Positions 39,046 to 53,104 of a DNA stretch of 64,000 bases are shown here, piece after piece. The DNA is taken from UHGV virus genome UHGV-1375844. One strand, 5' to 3'. Numbering within the stretch: the stretch's first letter is position 1; the number at the start of each line of letters is the position of its first letter. The translations under genes were made by a program, and so were the position numbers. The stretch comes from a virus. The notes beneath the pieces were generated by a model. It had not been told where the DNA came from. It saw only the letters and a list, made by a program, of their open reading frames with translations, and ran no database searches.

Positions 39046-39066
39046 GATAAGTAAGTCATTACTTAT
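39046..39066. promoter_or_regulatory. dispersed palindromic motif copy (GATAAGTAAGTCATTACTTAT)
   Basis: Between the PhoH start and the plus-strand AT-rich gene. Confidence 0.5.
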
Positions 39067-39205
39067 TTATCGTGGCTTTGTGCTAGGTTAAAACAGCTTT
39101 GGGGAGCTGGTGCGCTTAAGGCCTTCCAGAAAACTCAAACTAGCTGAAATAGTAGGGTCAATTAGGTATCATTCCTTTTCAAATTTAACCAAAGACTCTT
39201 ATAAA

Positions 39206-40438
39206 ATGCCTGCTTTGTTAATTCTCATAATTGGGACATTGATGATTATTTTCTGGGATGTGATTAAGGAAAACGTAGAGGTTATAGGTACGCTTGCCAC
39301 TTCACTTGCCTTTTTTGCTACTGCCTGGGCTGCTTACGAGGCAAGGCATAGTGCAAAGGCGGCAATGAAGGCGACCCAGCTGACGGCTGATTCACTTCTT
39401 GAAATGAAAAAAGCCTCTTTTAAGGAGTGGTACGGCATTTTACTTGAACAGCATAATAAATTACTTGAGGATGTTAATAAGACCTTATTGGATGACAATG
39501 AACTTAATACCAGGTTGAATATTAATGTCATAAGAGGTATTTATTATCACGTAACCAAAAATCCTGCTTACATTAAGTATATTAATCACATAATTTTAAT
39601 CCTGAATTATGTAGATAAAGACTTTTATCTGCCGTCCTCGGCGGAAAATGAAAAGAGATCTTATATAGAACAGTTGCGCAACAGCATTAGCCCAAAAGTA
39701 AGCCTGCTGATTGCTATTTTTGGCCTTAATATCGACAATAATAAAACTTATGATGCAAAGAAACTTTACAACCTTCTAAGCAAATATAACTTTTTTGAAA
39801 ATGAGCTATTTTTTGAAGTTGCAATATCAAAAGTTCATTACTTAGACACTTATGTCGCCGAGATATTTGACAAAGAATACCGAAAAGACGTTGAATTTTA
39901 TGTTGATGAAACGGTTTGTGGTCGTGCGCTCTCTTTTATCAATACGACATGCCGACACCATAGGATTACTTTCGCAGTTCAGTGGTCTTACAACAACCCC
40001 TGCCAAAAGCATTTGCTGAAAAGATTCAATGACCTACCTATGCACATGAGAAACGTCATTGGGCTGAACATGGAAAAAGCAGCCGAGAAAGTGGCTACGT
40101 TTAATTCTGAGTTGCCTGGTTTTGTCGGCTGGGAAATTAAGATTGCTAATAATAAGGTGAGAGTAATTAAGGATGAAAAAGAACTGAAAAGGCTAATAAA
40201 GCTTTACTATAAATACCCCTTTGACCCTCGACAAACTGGTATCGTGTTAACCAATGGTTTCACCAATAGATTCGCCGATGAGATTAGGAATAGTATGTCT
40301 AGCTATGCTTTACATAAAGCCTATCTAGAACTCAGCTCTAATCCGAACAAAGATCAGGTAATTGATGAGATTGTGTCAGAGGTTGAAAAAATGGTCGATA
40401 AATTTAAAACAGAACTTAATTCTTTCTGCTTTAACTGA
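39206..40438 (+). CDS. membrane-anchored protein of unknown function (two N-terminal TM helices plus ~350 aa domain); AT-rich moron
   Basis: Hydrophobic segments MPALLILIIGTLMIIFW and VIGTLATSLAFFATAWAAY; plus strand; visibly AT-rich; followed by terminator. Confidence 0.5.
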   Translation: MPALLILIIGTLMIIFWDVIKENVEVIGTLATSLAFFATAWAAYEARHSAKAAMKATQLTADSLLEMKKASFKEWYGILLEQHNKLLEDVNKTLLDDNELNTRLNINVIRGIYYHVTKNPAYIKYINHIILILNYVDKDFYLPSSAENEKRSYIEQLRNSISPKVSLLIAIFGLNIDNNKTYDAKKLYNLLSKYNFFENELFFEVAISKVHYLDTYVAEIFDKEYRKDVEFYVDETVCGRALSFINTTCRHHRITFAVQWSYNNPCQKHLLKRFNDLPMHMRNVIGLNMEKAAEKVATFNSELPGFVGWEIKIANNKVRVIKDEKELKRLIKLYYKYPFDPRQTGIVLTNGFTNRFADEIRNSMSSYALHKAYLELSSNPNKDQVIDEIVSEVEKMVDKFKTELNSFCFN

Positions 40439-48805: not shown

Positions 48806-49531
48806 TCAACAGAAACGCCGCGCTTCTTCCAGCTCTTCCGGAAAGTGGGCGTAGATAACTCGCTCAGGCACAACTTCCATGAGCCAGATGGCAGAAAAAA
48901 TTATGCGTATGCGCTTATCCCGGGTGATGCCACGTAAACGCTCCAGAACCCACTCAAAATAGCTTTCCTGAATCGGGTCGTGCTGCATGTCTCCCATATG
49001 CTTAAAACTCACCAGAGAGTCATCCAGACGGGTTACAGCGCGTTTAGCTAACTTCTCTTCGAATATCTCGATTAGCTCTGGCTGCCAGAGATGTTGTGGG
49101 CGAGGTAATTTGTCCCACAACCGGCGTGCAGCTGCGGAGAGAACGGTGGAGATGAAGTAGTCATAAGAGCAGCAATAACGATCTGCGAACTGCCTGGCTT
49201 TCCAGAGAGAAGTCTTATTGGCTGTGGATAGCTCCTGATATGGCAAACGCTTCAGGCCAGTTGTAAACGGTGCTGTCTCGAAGTGTTCACGTCCATGCGA
49301 CAGCATGATGTAGGAGTACTGCCGCTTGTATGCTTCGGTGAACAGACATGTCGCCATTAGCGGGTGCATATCGCGGTAGTCGAACCACTTGGAGTCATAC
49401 AACTCGGCCTCATCCTTACAGCGCGAAAGACCGATGTTTTCGGCCACCCACTTGTCCATGACAGCGGTGTCCCACTCCTTCATGAAGGCGTACTGGTCGT
49501 TGTCGATAGTGTTGAAGAAAATCTGGCTCAT
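48806..49531 (-). CDS. hypothetical protein (241 aa)
   Basis: ORF upstream of helicase; palindromic motif just upstream at ~49544-49566. Confidence 0.45.
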   Translation of the reverse strand: MSQIFFNTIDNDQYAFMKEWDTAVMDKWVAENIGLSRCKDEAELYDSKWFDYRDMHPLMATCLFTEAYKRQYSYIMLSHGREHFETAPFTTGLKRLPYQELSTANKTSLWKARQFADRYCCSYDYFISTVLSAAARRLWDKLPRPQHLWQPELIEIFEEKLAKRAVTRLDDSLVSFKHMGDMQHDPIQESYFEWVLERLRGITRDKRIRIIFSAIWLMEVVPERVIYAHFPEELEEARRFC

Positions 49532-49650
49532 GTGATCCGCTATGGTAGGTAGTTACTTACTTATCAAAGTGAGCGAATCATAACGACTGGAGACAGCTTT
49601 TGGAAGTGGCAACTGAAGGGAATGTGTCTGGGAAGCTCGTTGTGAAAAGA

Positions 49651-49704
49651 CCTGCTTCCGTATAAATAATAATAAGTAACTTAGTATTTATATACAGAAG
49701 CAGG
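49651..49704. repeat. ~54 bp palindromic element (copy B; inverted relative to copy A at 563-612)
   Basis: CCTGCTTCCGTATA ... TATACAGAAGCAGG stems around an AT-rich loop containing AATAAGTAACTTAGTATT. Confidence 0.6.
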
Positions 49705-49720
49705 TTATAAAATCCTTTAT

Positions 49721-50131
49721 CTATTTTTCGATAACTCTTTGTTCAACTTCTTGCATCTGCTTTTCAGTGAGACTAGAAATGTGTTGATTCAGCAACAGAT
49801 TGCGGTAGAAACTTTTTTGAGCCTCCGATAAATCCTGTCGCTTATCAATGTTTCTCAAAGCATTGCCGTAACTCTCGCTGATCGCATCACCATTGAATGC
49901 CTCAATAATGGTTTTCACATTCATAGCCAAGACGCCAAAGATAAAACAACCAGTGTTGTATACCCAGTCTACAACAAACCCTTTGGCGTACAAGAAAGGG
50001 GTTAAAATGTGAAGAATAACCCAAAGCAAAGCGCCAATTATTATTCCAAAAGCAGTTCTAAGCGGATAGCCCAAAAACAGAATATCTATTGCCCGATTTA
50101 AATTCCGACTAAAGAAATCATGATCTGGCAT
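49721..50131 (-). CDS. small integral membrane protein (2-3 TM), AT-rich
   Basis: Hydrophobic segments IIIGALLWVILHILTPFLY and GCFIFGVLAM; visibly AT-rich. Confidence 0.45.
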   Translation of the reverse strand: MPDHDFFSRNLNRAIDILFLGYPLRTAFGIIIGALLWVILHILTPFLYAKGFVVDWVYNTGCFIFGVLAMNVKTIIEAFNGDAISESYGNALRNIDKRQDLSEAQKSFYRNLLLNQHISSLTEKQMQEVEQRVIEK

Positions 50132-50762
50132 CTAAAACCCCCTTTCCCAATTCTTCCCCTGGAATTTCTTCCGAGGCAGGGGTATTAAATATTTTACGCC
50201 TTCTGCCGCTTCCACCATCATCGATCTTGTCGATATTATTTTCGATGAACTTTAAAAGCTGTATAGCCTCTGTACTATTGTTGCCGTAAAACCCTTTGGA
50301 AATACGATATGTCAGAACGCGCTCTTTCAGCTCAAGTAAAACAAAGACAACAATCCCGATAATAGTTACAATGGGGCTAAAGCCCCAAAAGTAACCCATT
50401 GAAGCACCAAGAAAAATCATCAGCACCGATAAAAACTTAACCTTAAGGAAGGTTTTTTTCTCATATAAAAGATAAAGCTCGGAAATAGTTTTCCTTTTCA
50501 AAAACTCTTGCTCTTTCTTTAAATTGTCCTCATGTTTTGCTTTTATCTCTTGTAATTTTATTCTGTACTCTTCTGATTTTATATAACTCAATGTATTACG
50601 ATACAAGAAACTACATACCATACCTATCATTGAGCCAATAACAGAAATGACACCTTGGTTTGAAATTCCCAACAACCCCATAACCTTTCCAAAGATCACG
50701 GCGGCTATAATGGCTAACATTAGACCTACGAACCATCCGAAATGTCTATTCAGGAATTTCAT
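50118..50762 (-). CDS. integral membrane protein (~4 TM), AT-rich
   Basis: Hydrophobic segments near N-terminus and mid-protein, K/E-rich loop; overlaps the downstream gene. Confidence 0.45.
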   Translation of the reverse strand: MKFLNRHFGWFVGLMLAIIAAVIFGKVMGLLGISNQGVISVIGSMIGMVCSFLYRNTLSYIKSEEYRIKLQEIKAKHEDNLKKEQEFLKRKTISELYLLYEKKTFLKVKFLSVLMIFLGASMGYFWGFSPIVTIIGIVVFVLLELKERVLTYRISKGFYGNNSTEAIQLLKFIENNIDKIDDGGSGRRRKIFNTPASEEIPGEELGKGVLDARS

Positions 50763-50766
50763 TATA

Positions 50767-51126
50767 TTAGCCTTTCTTCATCAGCTCGCGCTTGATCTCG
50801 TCTGTGCGCATCGTGACGTCAGCAGCGGTGATCGCCTCGTTCAGTTTCACAATGTCCTCGATTTCCTGCGGCGACTTCTCTGCCAGATGGTAAATGGCTG
50901 CACGAATCACGTCAGAACGGGTGAACTTCTCAAAGCGAGGGATGAATTTCATCATCTCCAGCAGATCGAAGTATTCGTCCTCCAGCGACATGGTACGGCT
51001 CTTTATTTTCTCTTTCCCACGAGTCGGGCGGCCCTGTGGTCTGACTGGCTGGCGCAACGGCGTGCTGTTTTTGGCCGGAGCATCCGGTTCTTTGCGCTTG
51101 GCAAGGTCTCCCATCTTCATGGACAT
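50767..51126 (-). CDS. putative partition centromere-binding protein (ParG/ParB-like partner of ParA)
   Basis: Small basic protein immediately downstream of parA with overlapping stop/start. Confidence 0.45.
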   Translation of the reverse strand: MSMKMGDLAKRKEPDAPAKNSTPLRQPVRPQGRPTRGKEKIKSRTMSLEDEYFDLLEMMKFIPRFEKFTRSDVIRAAIYHLAEKSPQEIEDIVKLNEAITAADVTMRTDEIKRELMKKG

Positions 51127-51791
51127 TACTCTTCCTCCAGACTCAAGATATAATCAACAAACTGTTCAAACTCGGCTTCTGCCTTCTTGTCGCGTTCGGC
51201 GCCAGTCATTTCAAAGATAGAGCGACCAGCCTCTTCTGCATCATCGTAAACGTTACGGTTGTACAAATTGACCGGTGCAGCTTCGATACCAAACGTCTCA
51301 ACGATTTCTTTGGCGGCCAGAATACGCGACACCTGGGAAGGTAGTGACGGGCACTGGTTGATAACGGCACGTATTTTCACCTTCTCGTTCACATTGCGTA
51401 CATTGTCGATAATCGGGTCGATGTCGCGCAGCGATTTCAGGTCACGACGTTTAGGGCGCAGCGGTATGACGATAACATCAGCCATCAGCATAGCTTGTCG
51501 CTGGATTTCGGAGTCGAAGCCCCCTGCGTCTACAACCACGTAATCGAAGCGCCCCTGAAGCGATTTGAGATGCTTAACGACGTCTTCCTGAACGTAAGCG
51601 AAAGGAATGAGATCGAGATCTTCATTCTGTCGACGGTCTTCGCACCAGCTGGTAGTGGTGCGCTGGATGTCGATGTCGGTAACTTGGATTTTCTTTTTCT
51701 TTTTGACTTTCAGGCAAACCGCTATTTGCTGGGCAACGGTCGATTTACCCGGGCCACCCTTCGTGCCGCCAACCACAATGATCCTAGTCAT
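51126..51791 (-). CDS. parA: ParA/Soj-family partition ATPase (small type Ib)
   Basis: Deviant Walker A VVGGTKGGPGKST; 221 aa. Confidence 0.85.
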   Translation of the reverse strand: MTRIIVVGGTKGGPGKSTVAQQIAVCLKVKKKKKIQVTDIDIQRTTTSWCEDRRQNEDLDLIPFAYVQEDVVKHLKSLQGRFDYVVVDAGGFDSEIQRQAMLMADVIVIPLRPKRRDLKSLRDIDPIIDNVRNVNEKVKIRAVINQCPSLPSQVSRILAAKEIVETFGIEAAPVNLYNRNVYDDAEEAGRSIFEMTGAERDKKAEAEFEQFVDYILSLEEE

Positions 51792-51986
51792 TGAATAGTT
51801 CCCTTTGCGTGAATTATTGTCGTATGAAACAACTTGTTTTCTTATATGCGATATAGCCTAAATGCCTACGGCTGCGGTGTAAAGGTGAAATGGTAGGTAT
51901 TATCGAGATAGAGAGGGTCTTGAGATTAAGAATGAGAAGAGGTAAACAACTTTTGGCGAGAAGGCGGCACATAGCCGCCAGACTGT

Positions 51987-52736
51987 TTATTTAGTGTATA
52001 GGCCGACAGGTGCTCTTGAGCAACGAGAGATGATTAGAACAATGAACTTCTGTACATTGACCTGAACTTTGTTAGGCAGCCATGAACTGAGTTCGGGATC
52101 GAGCAGTAACCCACGATTCCAAGGTAAAAAACCCGTGTTCTTGCCCATGCCGTATTCACCCAGCACGTCCTCGAACGTTTCTGTTTTGGCATTGTATATA
52201 CGCACATCGCCGGTACGCATGAGAGGGCCAGCCCAGATCTTAGCGCCAGGAATGGTTTGTTTATCGTCGCAGACTAAATGCTCGTACCAATGAAGAAGGA
52301 AAAGATAGGTACGGTGACACAATCCTCGCTGACGAAGCGCTCTGACGGTTTCGACCCCTGCTACCTGGTAACAGTCAATCTCGTTGCCGTCTTCAATAAA
52401 ACTATATCCACGCAGAGCTATCCTGCCGGCGATCGTGTTTTTGCTTTCGTCCAGCAGTCCGGACTGGAGCGCCTCTTTGATGATCTCTTCTTCAGGGGCA
52501 TCTTCATCAGCTCGATCTAAGATAAATTCACTCAGGTCGCCCTGGTCGTGCGCGCCGACTCGCTCCATAGAGACATACAGGCAAATGTCATCTTCTGGCT
52601 CGATGATTTCAATTTCTGAGATTTTATAGAGGGAGGCTTCGTTGATGAGAAAGCCAAAACGAGCAACACGAGTCTCCCCTTGATGAGGAAACTCGCTTAG
52701 ATCTTTTGAATATGCGGTATCTAGTGTAGGAGCCAT
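51987..52736 (-). CDS. hypothetical protein (249 aa)
   Basis: ORF only. Confidence 0.4.
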   Translation of the reverse strand: MAPTLDTAYSKDLSEFPHQGETRVARFGFLINEASLYKISEIEIIEPEDDICLYVSMERVGAHDQGDLSEFILDRADEDAPEEEIIKEALQSGLLDESKNTIAGRIALRGYSFIEDGNEIDCYQVAGVETVRALRQRGLCHRTYLFLLHWYEHLVCDDKQTIPGAKIWAGPLMRTGDVRIYNAKTETFEDVLGEYGMGKNTGFLPWNRGLLLDPELSSWLPNKVQVNVQKFIVLIISRCSRAPVGLYTK

Positions 52737-53104
52737 CTTGTAGCAGAGTCATCAGCCTTAACCGTACTGACAATGCTACCATGATTACGTAAGAAGCGGC
52801 GAATAGAATGTTCAATAACCTCCGAAAAAGCCTCGATAAAACGAGACAGCTCAGGGTACTGTTTGGCTGGCTTCACTACAAAACGAACACGACCATTCAG
52901 GTAAATTGCTTCAGCCAACGGTTTCACGCTTGCACCGGCGCGCTCGACATCGTCTTTAAAGGTAACGATGAAGCGTGAGTCTTCAGGTTCAATAGCGTCG
53001 TTATTGAGCTTACGTACTTCGAGCTTGTGCTGATGCAGCACATGAGTCTCGATAATACTCGTGCAATCGCGAATAGTTTGTATAGAACGTTTCTCGTTCA
53101 GCAT
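52721..53104 (-). CDS. hypothetical protein (127 aa)
   Basis: ORF only. Confidence 0.4.
   Translation of the reverse strand: MLNEKRSIQTIRDCTSIIETHVLHQHKLEVRKLNNDAIEPEDSRFIVTFKDDVERAGASVKPLAEAIYLNGRVRFVVKPAKQYPELSRFIEAFSEVIEHSIRRFLRNHGSIVSTVKADDSATRWLLH

What the first reader, a model, noticed from the sequence alone, without database searches (positions are those of the whole stretch)
49721..50762. AT-rich two-gene membrane-protein module between the replication genes and parA
Two overlapping genes encode small polytopic membrane proteins (136 and 214 aa) and are visibly AT-rich compared with neighbours. Palindromic element copy B and motif copies bracket them. This could be an uncharacterised membrane-acting exclusion/defence pair, or a holin-like pair outside the lysis cassette.
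Basis: partly seen in the sequence, partly recalled or inferred. Interest (0 to 1): 0.65.

Follow-up and report, generated by a model that had tools for sequence, protein, structure and literature searches.

The report
Mobile two-gene membrane cassette, probable phage defence
Two overlapping genes for small inner-membrane proteins form a foreign, AT-rich cassette in a swap-prone cargo slot of an SSU5-like phage-plasmid; the same uncharacterised pair sits in cargo and defence slots of other phages, satellites and distant bacteria, so it is a good untested candidate for a new anti-phage exclusion or defence system.

Summary
Genes 50118-50762(-) (214 aa, "B", 4 TM) and 49721-50131(-) (136 aa, "A", 2 TM) overlap by 14 nt. 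Their GC is 0.377 against 0.495 for the window.

The window is an SSU5-like phage-plasmid. The pair lies directly after parA and a 119-aa gene, and before a conserved palindrome and the replication genes. This slot is a cargo hotspot. In relatives it is empty or holds DUF2971/PDC-S31, PD-T4-3, a P-loop NTPase, or diverged alleles of the same pair.

B has 751 relatives (50%-identity clusters). No Pfam, PADLOC or PDB match was found.

In 62 of 62 fetched loci, B is immediately followed by an A homolog. These loci include:
- P2-like prophages, one with the pair between gpA and the portal gene, the published P2 defence hotspot;
- P4-like satellites, one next to PD-T7-5;
- an ICE-like element;
- Cyanobacteria, Bacteroidota and Chloroflexota MAGs.

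The pair is AT-rich wherever GC was computed. It is under purifying selection but evolves faster than the backbone.

Best reading (about 0.55): a lysogen-expressed, inner-membrane exclusion or abortive-infection pair. A holin role is not supported. Function is inferred, not shown.

The parts
50118..50762 (-). Gene B: 214-aa inner-membrane protein. Predicted N-in/C-in with 4 TM. The N-terminal half is variable. The conserved core is TM3-TM4 plus a cytoplasmic motif, YRIxKGFYGxNxxEAIQLLKFIExNID...G..RRxI.
   Evidence: ORF. Hydropathy. AF2 all-helical, pLDDT 66. Alignments A1/A3. 751 relatives in the 1.84e9-protein library. dN/dS 0.08-0.12. ATG 4 nt after the stop of the 119-aa gene, with AAAGG 8 nt upstream.
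49721..50131 (-). Gene A: 136-aa inner-membrane protein. It has an N-terminal amphipathic helix, a conserved P-x-R-T-x-x-G-x-x-x-G motif entering TM1, then TM2, then a 65-aa cytoplasmic helical tail.
   Evidence: ORF. Hydropathy. AF2 pLDDT 75, helices 3-21, 23-49, 56-97, 103-120, 123-135. Alignment A2. An A homolog lies directly downstream of B in 62 of 62 loci. dN/dS about 0.13.
50118..50144 (-). B/A junction: 14-nt overlap (ATGCCAGATCATGA) and the Shine-Dalgarno AAGGGGG (50138-50144) for gene A inside the end of gene B. This arrangement fits translational coupling.
   Evidence: Sequence read directly. An overlap or near-abutment of the two genes is kept in all 62 loci, with offsets from -13 to +33 nt.
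49532..50766 (.). Variable cargo slot (hotspot) of SSU5-like phage-plasmids, between the 119-aa par-operon gene and the 241-aa replication-module gene. In this window it holds the A/B pair only.
   Evidence: Contents in relatives: empty (pSAN1-1735); DUF2971/PDC-S31 alone; pair plus DUF2971 (SSU5, pJN2-26); PD-T4-3 (PhiR41_1); a 569-aa P-loop NTPase; diverged A/B alleles.
49650..49705 (.). 56-nt palindrome at the replication-side edge of the slot. It is a backbone element, not part of the cassette. It may be a terminator or an operator for the flanking operons; its function is unknown.
   Evidence: Inverted repeat. Hairpin dG -14.3 kcal/mol, z -7.4. Conserved at this position whatever the cargo. 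Second copy at 566-616.
50767..51791 (-). Upstream genes of the same transcription direction: parA (51126-51791) and a 119-aa gene (50767-51126; inferred centromere-binding ParB/ParG-like partner). The pair is appended to this operon without an intergenic gap.
   Evidence: Pfam AAA_31/MipZ/CbiA/ParA hits for the 221-aa protein. The 119-aa protein matches phrog_5111. Gene junctions read in the sequence.

Best explanation
The two genes form one self-contained, horizontally mobile cassette. B is a 4-TM protein and A is a 2-TM protein, translationally coupled in the order B then A. The cassette has landed in the cargo hotspot of an SSU5-like phage-plasmid.

Proposed function: a lysogenic-conversion module. 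It would be expressed at low level from the parA operon while the element is maintained as a plasmid, and would protect the host and the resident element against other phages at the inner membrane.

Proposed mechanism (inferred, not shown):
- Both proteins sit N-in/C-in with almost no periplasmic exposure.
- The conserved cytoplasmic domain of B and the cytoplasmic tail of A form a complex at the membrane.
- The fast-evolving N-terminal half of B tunes specificity or regulation.
- On infection, the complex either blocks genome entry through the inner membrane (superinfection exclusion) or opens and depolarises the membrane (abortive infection). A would be the likely pore-forming or holin-like effector, and B its gatekeeper or sensor.

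Shown: gene structure, topology, foreign composition, strict B-A pairing, wide distribution, purifying selection, hotspot location and defence-gene neighbours.

Inferred: expression from the par promoter, A-B interaction, anti-phage function and the membrane mechanism.
For: 1. Cargo hotspot. Among 464 PLSDB plasmids sharing the flanks, the slot is empty or holds DUF2971 (PADLOC PDC-S31, E 2e-33), PD-T4-3 (E 1.6e-23), a P-loop NTPase, or A/B alleles. SSU5-group elements are reported to carry PD-T4-3 and PD-T7-5 (10.1101/2025.09.12.675607).

2. The same pair occupies cargo positions in other kinds of mobile element:
- a satellite-like integrative element in Enterobacter and K. aerogenes, directly followed by PD-T7-5 (E 7e-131);
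- a Morganella P2-like prophage, exactly between gpA and the portal gene. This is the validated P2 anti-phage hotspot of Rousset 2022;
- Citrobacter P2-like prophages, between gpS and gpV;
- prophage ends in K. oxytoca;
- a P4-like satellite, between the primase and a STAND-like NTPase;
- 1.5 kb from a PD-T7-3-like gene and 3.8 kb from PDC-M01A;
- an ICE-like context.

3. Strict two-gene unit. In 62 of 62 loci with B, A lies directly downstream on the same strand. This includes Cyanobacteria, Bacteroidota and Chloroflexota MAGs.

4. Foreign and fast-evolving. Pair GC was 0.28-0.40 in every element where it was computed, including contigs of GC 0.58-0.59. dN/dS is 0.08-0.14. Between the window and SSU5, dN is 0.17-0.21 against 0.009-0.034 for backbone genes. 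The N-terminal half of B is replaced between alleles.

5. Patchy and rare. The pair is in 74 of 464 related plasmids. One E. coli allele is in 7 of 5426 complete genomes.

6. Operon fusion to parA-119aa, so expression is expected in the plasmid (lysogenic) state.
Against: - No experiment exists, and no homology to any validated defence protein was found. PADLOC gave no hit for A, B or 61 relatives.
- Hotspots also carry non-defence cargo such as TA modules, methylases and anti-defence genes, so association is not proof.
- The neighbourhood evidence is a hand-picked set of about 25 non-redundant contexts with no statistical control.
- Both proteins lack any recognisable sensor or enzymatic domain.
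- The structure models are only moderate (pLDDT 66 and 75), and the fold searches were uninformative.
- No sigma-70 consensus promoter was found on the minus strand in 49400-52100, so expression is inferred from gene arrangement only.
Confidence: 0.55

Rival explanations
1. Addiction / toxin-antitoxin-like stabilisation module. One membrane protein (for example the holin-like A) is a toxin that damages the membrane when the element is lost. The other (B) is its membrane-embedded antidote. The cassette stabilises whichever mobile element carries it.
For: - Two small overlapping genes with conserved order form a translationally coupled operon, which is typical TA architecture.
- In the phage-plasmids it lies directly behind the partition genes, in the maintenance region.
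- A GNAT/TacA-like TA pair and a HicB/UPF0150-like gene occur near the locus in some relatives.
Against: - The pair is equally present in integrated prophages and satellites, which do not need segregational stability.
- Many TA modules in such hotspots act as abortive-infection systems anyway, so this rival partly overlaps the main explanation.
- There was no hit to any TA family in Pfam or PADLOC.
Confidence: 0.15
2. Other lysogenic-conversion or cargo function at the membrane, unrelated to phage defence. Examples are an ion or small-molecule channel, envelope-stress tolerance, exclusion of conjugative plasmids, or a counter-defence factor.
For: - MGE hotspots also carry non-defence cargo.
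- The proteins have no diagnostic domains.
- The family is broad: 751 clusters across phyla.
Against: - The known genes seen next to the pair, or replacing it, in the hotspots are defence-annotated: PD-T4-3, PD-T7-5, PDC-S31, PD-T7-3-like, PDC-M01A, STAND-like NTPase, HARE-HTH protein.
- There is no transporter-like fold or family.
Confidence: 0.17
3. Accessory holin/antiholin-like pair that modulates the lysis timing of the phage-plasmid itself.
For: - A is holin-sized, with 2 TM and a charged cytoplasmic C-terminal tail.
- It comes as a pair with a second membrane protein, as holin and antiholin do.
Against: - It is not in the lysis cassette. In SSU5 the holin, endolysin and spanin genes are annotated beyond parA and two further genes from the pair.
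- It is missing from about 84% of related plasmids.
- It is co-oriented and fused with parA rather than with late genes.
- It is present in satellites, an ICE-like element and MAG contigs with no phage lysis genes nearby.
- There was no holin Pfam hit at E<=1.
Confidence: 0.05
4. Membrane tether or accessory factor of the ParA partition system.
For: The pair lies immediately downstream of parA and the 119-aa gene, in the same operon.
Against: - Most plasmids with the same parA and 119-aa genes lack the pair. One has an empty slot.
- The pair also occurs in elements without par genes.
- Its foreign GC differs from that of parA and the 119-aa gene.
Confidence: 0.03

Closest known systems
Lambda RexA/RexB exclusion system
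   Same: A two-gene prophage module expressed in the lysogen. It has a small polytopic inner-membrane component (RexB has 4 TM). It is thought to act by membrane depolarisation on superinfection (own knowledge; also cited as Snyder 1995 in PMC9122126).
   Different: There is no sequence relation: hhalign probability is 0.2-0.3% for B or A against RexB. Here both partners are membrane proteins, with no cytoplasmic RexA-like sensor.
Kiwa (KwaA 4-TM + KwaB DUF4868)
   Same: A two-gene defence system whose first gene encodes a roughly 200-aa 4-TM protein. It is found in P4 hotspots (Rousset Table S1B).
   Different: There is no PADLOC KwaA/KwaB hit. The partner here is a 2-TM protein, not a DUF4868 protein.
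2TM + 1TM + TIR system of P2-like phage AC1 (Rousset 2022)
   Same: Small membrane proteins encoded in a P2-family hotspot, proposed there to be the membrane partners activated by the TIR protein.
   Different: No TIR or other signalling enzyme accompanies the A/B pair. There are no PADLOC hits. The diagnostic motifs of A and B are absent from that paper's supplementary sequence tables as held.
Classical superinfection-exclusion membrane proteins (T4 Imm/Sp, P22 SieA, HK97 gp15)
   Same: Small inner-membrane proteins of phages or prophages that block genome entry of incoming phages (own knowledge). Like these, the pair is dispensable, patchily distributed cargo.
   Different: No homology was detected, and those proteins were not tested individually here. 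Those systems are single proteins. This one is an obligate pair that is also found outside phages.
Holin/antiholin and CidAB/LrgAB-type pairs
   Same: Gene sizes and TM counts are reminiscent: about 130 aa plus about 220 aa membrane proteins in one operon. A has a holin-like layout.
   Different: There is no Pfam hit to any holin or LrgA/LrgB family. The pair is not linked to an endolysin and not conserved among related phages.

Membership tests
Phage holin (lysis cassette component) | Encoded in or next to the lysis cassette (endolysin, spanins) and conserved among related phages | tested here: not met
   In SSU5 the holin, endolysin and Rz genes are annotated beyond parA and two further genes from the pair. 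Only 74 of 464 related plasmids carry a B homolog.
Phage holin (lysis cassette component) | Match to a holin sequence family | tested here: not met
   Pfam scan at E<=1 gave only sub-threshold DUF5822, DUF2244 and RseC hits. PHROGs families phrog_17322 and phrog_22270 are 'unknown function'.
Phage holin (lysis cassette component) | Small protein with 1-4 TM segments and a charged cytoplasmic C-terminus | tested here: met
   A136 has 2 TM and a charged helical tail. This feature is generic and not sufficient.
RexAB | RexB-homologous 4-TM protein plus a cytoplasmic RexA partner | tested here: not met
   hhalign of profiles A3 and A2 against lambda RexB gave probability below 1%. The partner is a membrane protein.
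Kiwa | KwaA plus KwaB (DUF4868) | tested here: not met
   There were no PADLOC hits for the window proteins at E<=1, nor a consistent hit in 61 relatives. No DUF4868 gene is adjacent.
Signal-activated TM effectors (CBASS/Pycsar/Thoeris 2TM-4TM effectors, SLATT) | Effector HMM match and an adjacent cyclase/TIR/SMODS signal generator | tested here: not met
   There was no hit for the window proteins. Single weak hits (E about 1e-3) appeared in 1 of 61 relatives each. No signalling enzyme lies in the conserved unit, which is always just B+A.
Anti-phage defence system (generic, operational definition) | Recurrent location in variable hotspots or defence islands of MGEs, next to or alternating with validated defence genes | tested here: met
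   This rests on hand-picked contexts, with no statistical control.
Anti-phage defence system (generic, operational definition) | Confers protection against phage when expressed | not testable with these tools
   This needs cloning and a phage challenge.
Type II-like toxin-antitoxin / addiction module | Compact two-gene operon with overlapping genes | tested here: met
   The genes overlap by 14 nt, and the order is conserved in 62 of 62 loci.
Type II-like toxin-antitoxin / addiction module | One product toxic, neutralised by the other; match to a TA family | tested here: inconclusive
   There is no TA family match. Toxicity and neutralisation cannot be tested computationally.
ParABS partition system component | Co-inherited with parA/parB in all elements that use that par system | tested here: not met
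   The slot is empty in pSAN1-1735 and holds other cargo in most relatives with the same parA. The pair is also present in elements without par genes.

The most novel reading that the evidence does not exclude
The B(4-TM)/A(2-TM) pair is the founding example of a widespread, previously unrecognised two-component defence or exclusion family built only from membrane proteins. It is present in phage-plasmids, P2-like phages, P4-like satellites, ICE-like elements and distant phyla. It would detect phage genome entry, or an early phage product, at the inner membrane and respond without any enzymatic or nucleotide-signalling partner. This mechanism would be distinct from RexAB, Kiwa and the signal-activated TM effectors.
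Probability: 0.35. Interest if true: 0.7.

Novelty: new variant of a known kind. Interest (0 to 1): 0.55.

Why it matters
If the pair is protective, it adds a compact defence or exclusion family of about 1 kb made only of membrane proteins, which current annotation tools (PADLOC, Pfam) do not detect. It would show that the par-proximal slot of SSU5-like phage-plasmids works as a defence hotspot like those of P2 and P4. These elements are common in clinical Salmonella, Klebsiella, Enterobacter and E. coli. It would also give a simple two-protein system for studying how a membrane complex senses infection. For phage therapy against Enterobacteriaceae, such cargo on widespread phage-plasmids could affect phage susceptibility. 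If the pair is not protective, it is still a broadly distributed, strictly paired membrane cassette of unknown role that travels between very different mobile elements.

Tried and rejected
- **AbiT.** The lactococcal AbiTi/AbiTii proteins (127 and 213 aa) looked similar in size. They are nuclease/HEPN-type, not membrane proteins (PMC13064643). Rejected.
- **RexB homology.** hhalign probability below 1%. Rejected.
- **A and B as paralogs.** hhalign probability 0.9%. Rejected.
- **PDB sequence-profile searches.** Nothing found.
- **Word-indexed homolog search.** It suggested an Enterobacteriaceae-only family of 19-35 clusters. The exhaustive HMM search overturned this with 751 clusters.
- **The search for related loci with the very diverse alignment A5.** It failed because no stretch was conserved enough. 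A3 worked.
- **'Decayed remnants' in K. pneumoniae pKPHS1-type plasmids (my first reading).** This was wrong. A is intact but mis-annotated, B has one frameshift in that record, and sister contigs carry an intact 255+136 aa pair.
- **Palindrome as part of the cassette.** Rejected for the phage-plasmids, where it stays when the cargo changes. A related palindrome does follow the pair in K. oxytoca prophages.
- **Literature.** Searches by accession and by topic found no paper on these proteins. The diagnostic motifs are absent from the Rousset 2022 supplementary sequences as held; two of those files were truncated.
- **putAbiC idea for the other AT-rich ORF (39110-40438).** BLASTP was negative.

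Full report
**What is there.** On the minus strand the window encodes, in order:
- parA (51126-51791; Pfam AAA_31/MipZ/CbiA/ParA);
- a 119-aa gene (50767-51126; phrog_5111; inferred ParB/ParG-like);
- a 214-aa ORF (50118-50762, here 'B');
- a 136-aa ORF (49721-50131, 'A');
- a 189-nt spacer holding a 56-nt palindrome (49650-49705);
- the replication module: a 241-aa gene at 48806-49531, a DnaB-like helicase and a primase.

The B start codon is 4 nt after the stop of the 119-aa gene. A overlaps B by 14 nt, and a strong AAGGGGG Shine-Dalgarno for A lies inside B. B and A are therefore appended to the par operon and are probably translationally coupled.

**Check of the observation.**
- Hydropathy and AlphaFold2 models agree on all-helical membrane proteins. 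B has TM1 8-30, TM2 36-54, a charged cytoplasmic helical segment 55-105, TM3 106-126, TM4 128-148 and a 65-aa tail (pLDDT 66). A has an N-terminal helix, TM1 about 24-46, TM2 about 52-72 and a helical tail (pLDDT 75).
- The distribution of K and R residues implies N-in/C-in for both proteins, with periplasmic loops of only 2-7 residues. This topology is my inference from the sequence.
- Pair GC is 0.377 against 0.495 for the window, rank 20 of 1260 windows of equal length. GC3 is 0.40-0.41 against 0.57-0.69 in the four flanking genes.
- The palindrome is real (z = -7.4) but lies on one side only. It belongs to the backbone, because it sits at the same place in relatives whatever the cargo. A second copy is at 566-616.

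**What the element is.** The region is 82% identical to Salmonella phage SSU5. Over 48806-51791 it is 99.9% identical to the S. enterica plasmids NZ_CP030187.1 and NZ_CP044180.1. The window is an SSU5-like phage-plasmid.

**The slot is a cargo hotspot.** 464 PLSDB plasmids share the flanks. Between the 119-aa gene and the palindrome they carry one of the following:
- nothing (pSAN1-1735);
- a DUF2971 gene alone, which matches PADLOC PDC-S31 at E 2e-33 (many Enterobacter plasmids);
- the pair plus DUF2971 (SSU5, pJN2-26);
- PD-T4-3 on the opposite strand (PhiR41_1, E 1.6e-23);
- a 569-aa P-loop NTPase;
- A/B pairs of very different allele types, 246+136, 250+140, 255+136 and 280+136 aa.

Only 74 of the 464 have any B homolog, and 18 have a full-length match to B214. 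One E. coli allele occurs in 7 of 5426 complete genomes, always on plasmids. A preprint on clinical phage-plasmids reports PD-T4-3 and PD-T7-5 among SSU5-group cargo.

**The pair is a conserved mobile unit.**
- The word-indexed search found only Enterobacteriaceae relatives. An exhaustive profile search found 751 clusters at E<=1e-3 and 313 at E<=1e-10.
- The conserved part of B is its C-terminal half: TM3, TM4 and the motif YRIxKGFFGxNxxEAxxLLxFIxxNxD...G..R. The N-terminal half is replaced between alleles.
- A is conserved over its full length, with an invariant P-x-R-T-x-x-G-x-x-x-G entry into TM1.
- In every one of the 62 fetched loci that contain B, an A homolog starts at or overlaps the B stop on the same strand. 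These include a Leptolyngbyaceae cyanobacterium, Bacteroidales and Chitinophagales MAGs, and a Herpetosiphonaceae MAG.
- Pair GC was 0.28-0.40 in every locus where it was computed, including contigs of GC 0.58-0.59.
- dN/dS is 0.08-0.14 for both genes, so both are functional. Between the window and SSU5 their dN (0.17 and 0.21) is 5-20 times that of parA, the 241-aa gene and dnaB, and dS is also higher. This fits allele exchange or rapid evolution.

**Where else it sits.**
- In Enterobacter and K. aerogenes chromosomes it lies in a small integrative, satellite-like element with integrase, AlpA, Bro-N and a D5-type primase. There it is directly followed by PD-T7-5 (E 7e-131), and the element is found at several chromosomal sites.
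- In a Morganella P2-like prophage it lies exactly between gpA and the portal gene. Rousset et al. 2022 defined and validated this locus as the P2 anti-phage hotspot.
- In Citrobacter and other P2-like prophages it lies between gpS and gpV. From my own knowledge this is the orf30 moron position of P2.
- It also lies after gpD, or after the tail-fibre genes, at prophage ends.
- In a P4-like satellite it lies between the primase and a STAND-like NTPase.
- It lies 1.5 kb from a PD-T7-3-like/DUF4145 gene and 3.8 kb from PDC-M01A.
- It lies next to a HARE-HTH protein in a Bacteroidales MAG, next to transposases, and in an ICE-like context with AcaB, TopB and DUF2857.

**What it is not.**
- No Pfam, PADLOC, PHROGs-with-function or PDB family matches A, B or 61 diverse B relatives.
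- RexB is unrelated.
- AbiT is a different kind of protein.
- The fold searches were uninformative.
- No paper or database record names these proteins. Their motifs are absent from the Rousset 2022 supplementary sequences as held.

**Interpretation.** These features are the usual signature of anti-phage or exclusion cargo:
- a foreign, rapidly diversifying but selectively maintained two-gene unit;
- repeated occupation of cargo slots of phage-plasmids, P2-like phages, satellites and ICE-like elements;
- alternation with, or adjacency to, defence genes;
- here, an arrangement that implies expression in the plasmid state.

Both proteins are almost entirely membrane-embedded or cytoplasmic. Action at the inner membrane therefore seems most likely, either by blocking genome entry or by depolarisation. 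A would be a holin-like effector and B its regulator or sensor. I put about 0.55 on a defence or exclusion role. Within that, roughly equal weight goes to abortive infection and to entry exclusion. The remainder goes to a TA-like addiction module (0.15), other membrane cargo functions (0.17), a lysis accessory (0.05) and a partition accessory (0.03).

**Limits.** No function has been shown. The neighbourhood evidence is not statistically controlled. The structure models are only moderate. Expression is inferred from gene arrangement, and no consensus promoter was found in the scan.

**Verdict.** The defence or exclusion reading is supported by context and the holin reading is not. This is an uncharacterised, widely distributed two-gene membrane cassette: a new variant of a known kind (hotspot-encoded membrane exclusion or defence modules). 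It is worth an experimental test.

Noticed in passing
window 49650-49705 and 566-616: Two copies of a 56-nt AT-centred palindrome, ACCTGCTTC(C/T)GTATA...TATAC(A/G)GAAGCAGGT. As DNA hairpins they give dG -14 and -16 kcal/mol, z -7.4 and -8.2. Copy B is conserved just upstream of the 241-aa replication-module gene in all SSU5-like relatives examined, whatever the cargo. Copy A lies between a Dam-like methyltransferase gene and a small ORF. The function is unknown; it could be an operator, a terminator or origin-related.
   Followed up: partly
L018-L021 (K. oxytoca P2-like prophages), 8-55 nt after the A gene stop (e.g. L018 9293-9336): A related palindrome (CTGCTTCTGTATG...ATACAGATGCAG) follows the A/B pair in a P2-like prophage. 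This suggests the pair was exchanged between phage-plasmids and P2-like phages together with this backbone element.
   Followed up: partly
window 39110-40438 (+), next to a PhoH-like gene at 38226-39059 (-): This is the most AT-rich island of the window (GC down to 0.35). It encodes a 442-aa ORF with N-terminal TM helices and may be another piece of accessory or defence-like cargo. BLASTP against one putAbiC example was negative. No family search was left to test it.
   Followed up: partly
window ~2200-3300: A third AT-rich stretch (GC about 0.37), near genes annotated in the sister plasmid as a hypothetical protein and a 3'-5' exonuclease. Not examined.
   Followed up: no
window 51792-53104 (-) and the equivalent region upstream of parA in L009, L016, L030: The region upstream of parA also varies between relatives. 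The window has 249-aa and 127-aa genes (phrog_3307, phrog_2594). Citrobacter RHB20 plasmids have a GNAT/TacA-like toxin-antitoxin pair. An E. ludwigii plasmid has a 399-aa HEPN protein, and another relative has a 403-aa protein. This may be a second cargo hotspot flanking the par operon.
   Followed up: partly
L014 (K. pneumoniae pKPHS1, NC_016838.1) 2603-3772: The deposited annotation splits the pair into 61-aa, 144-aa and 53-aa ORFs. In fact the A gene is intact (136 aa, 3362-3769), and B differs by one frameshift from an intact 255-aa B in IMG/VR contigs (L043-L045).
   Followed up: yes
L001 (SSU5) 6642-6932 vs window 50767-51126: The par-operon gene between parA and B is annotated as 96 aa in SSU5 but is 117-120 aa in the window and in other relatives. 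This is probably a start-codon annotation difference.
   Followed up: no
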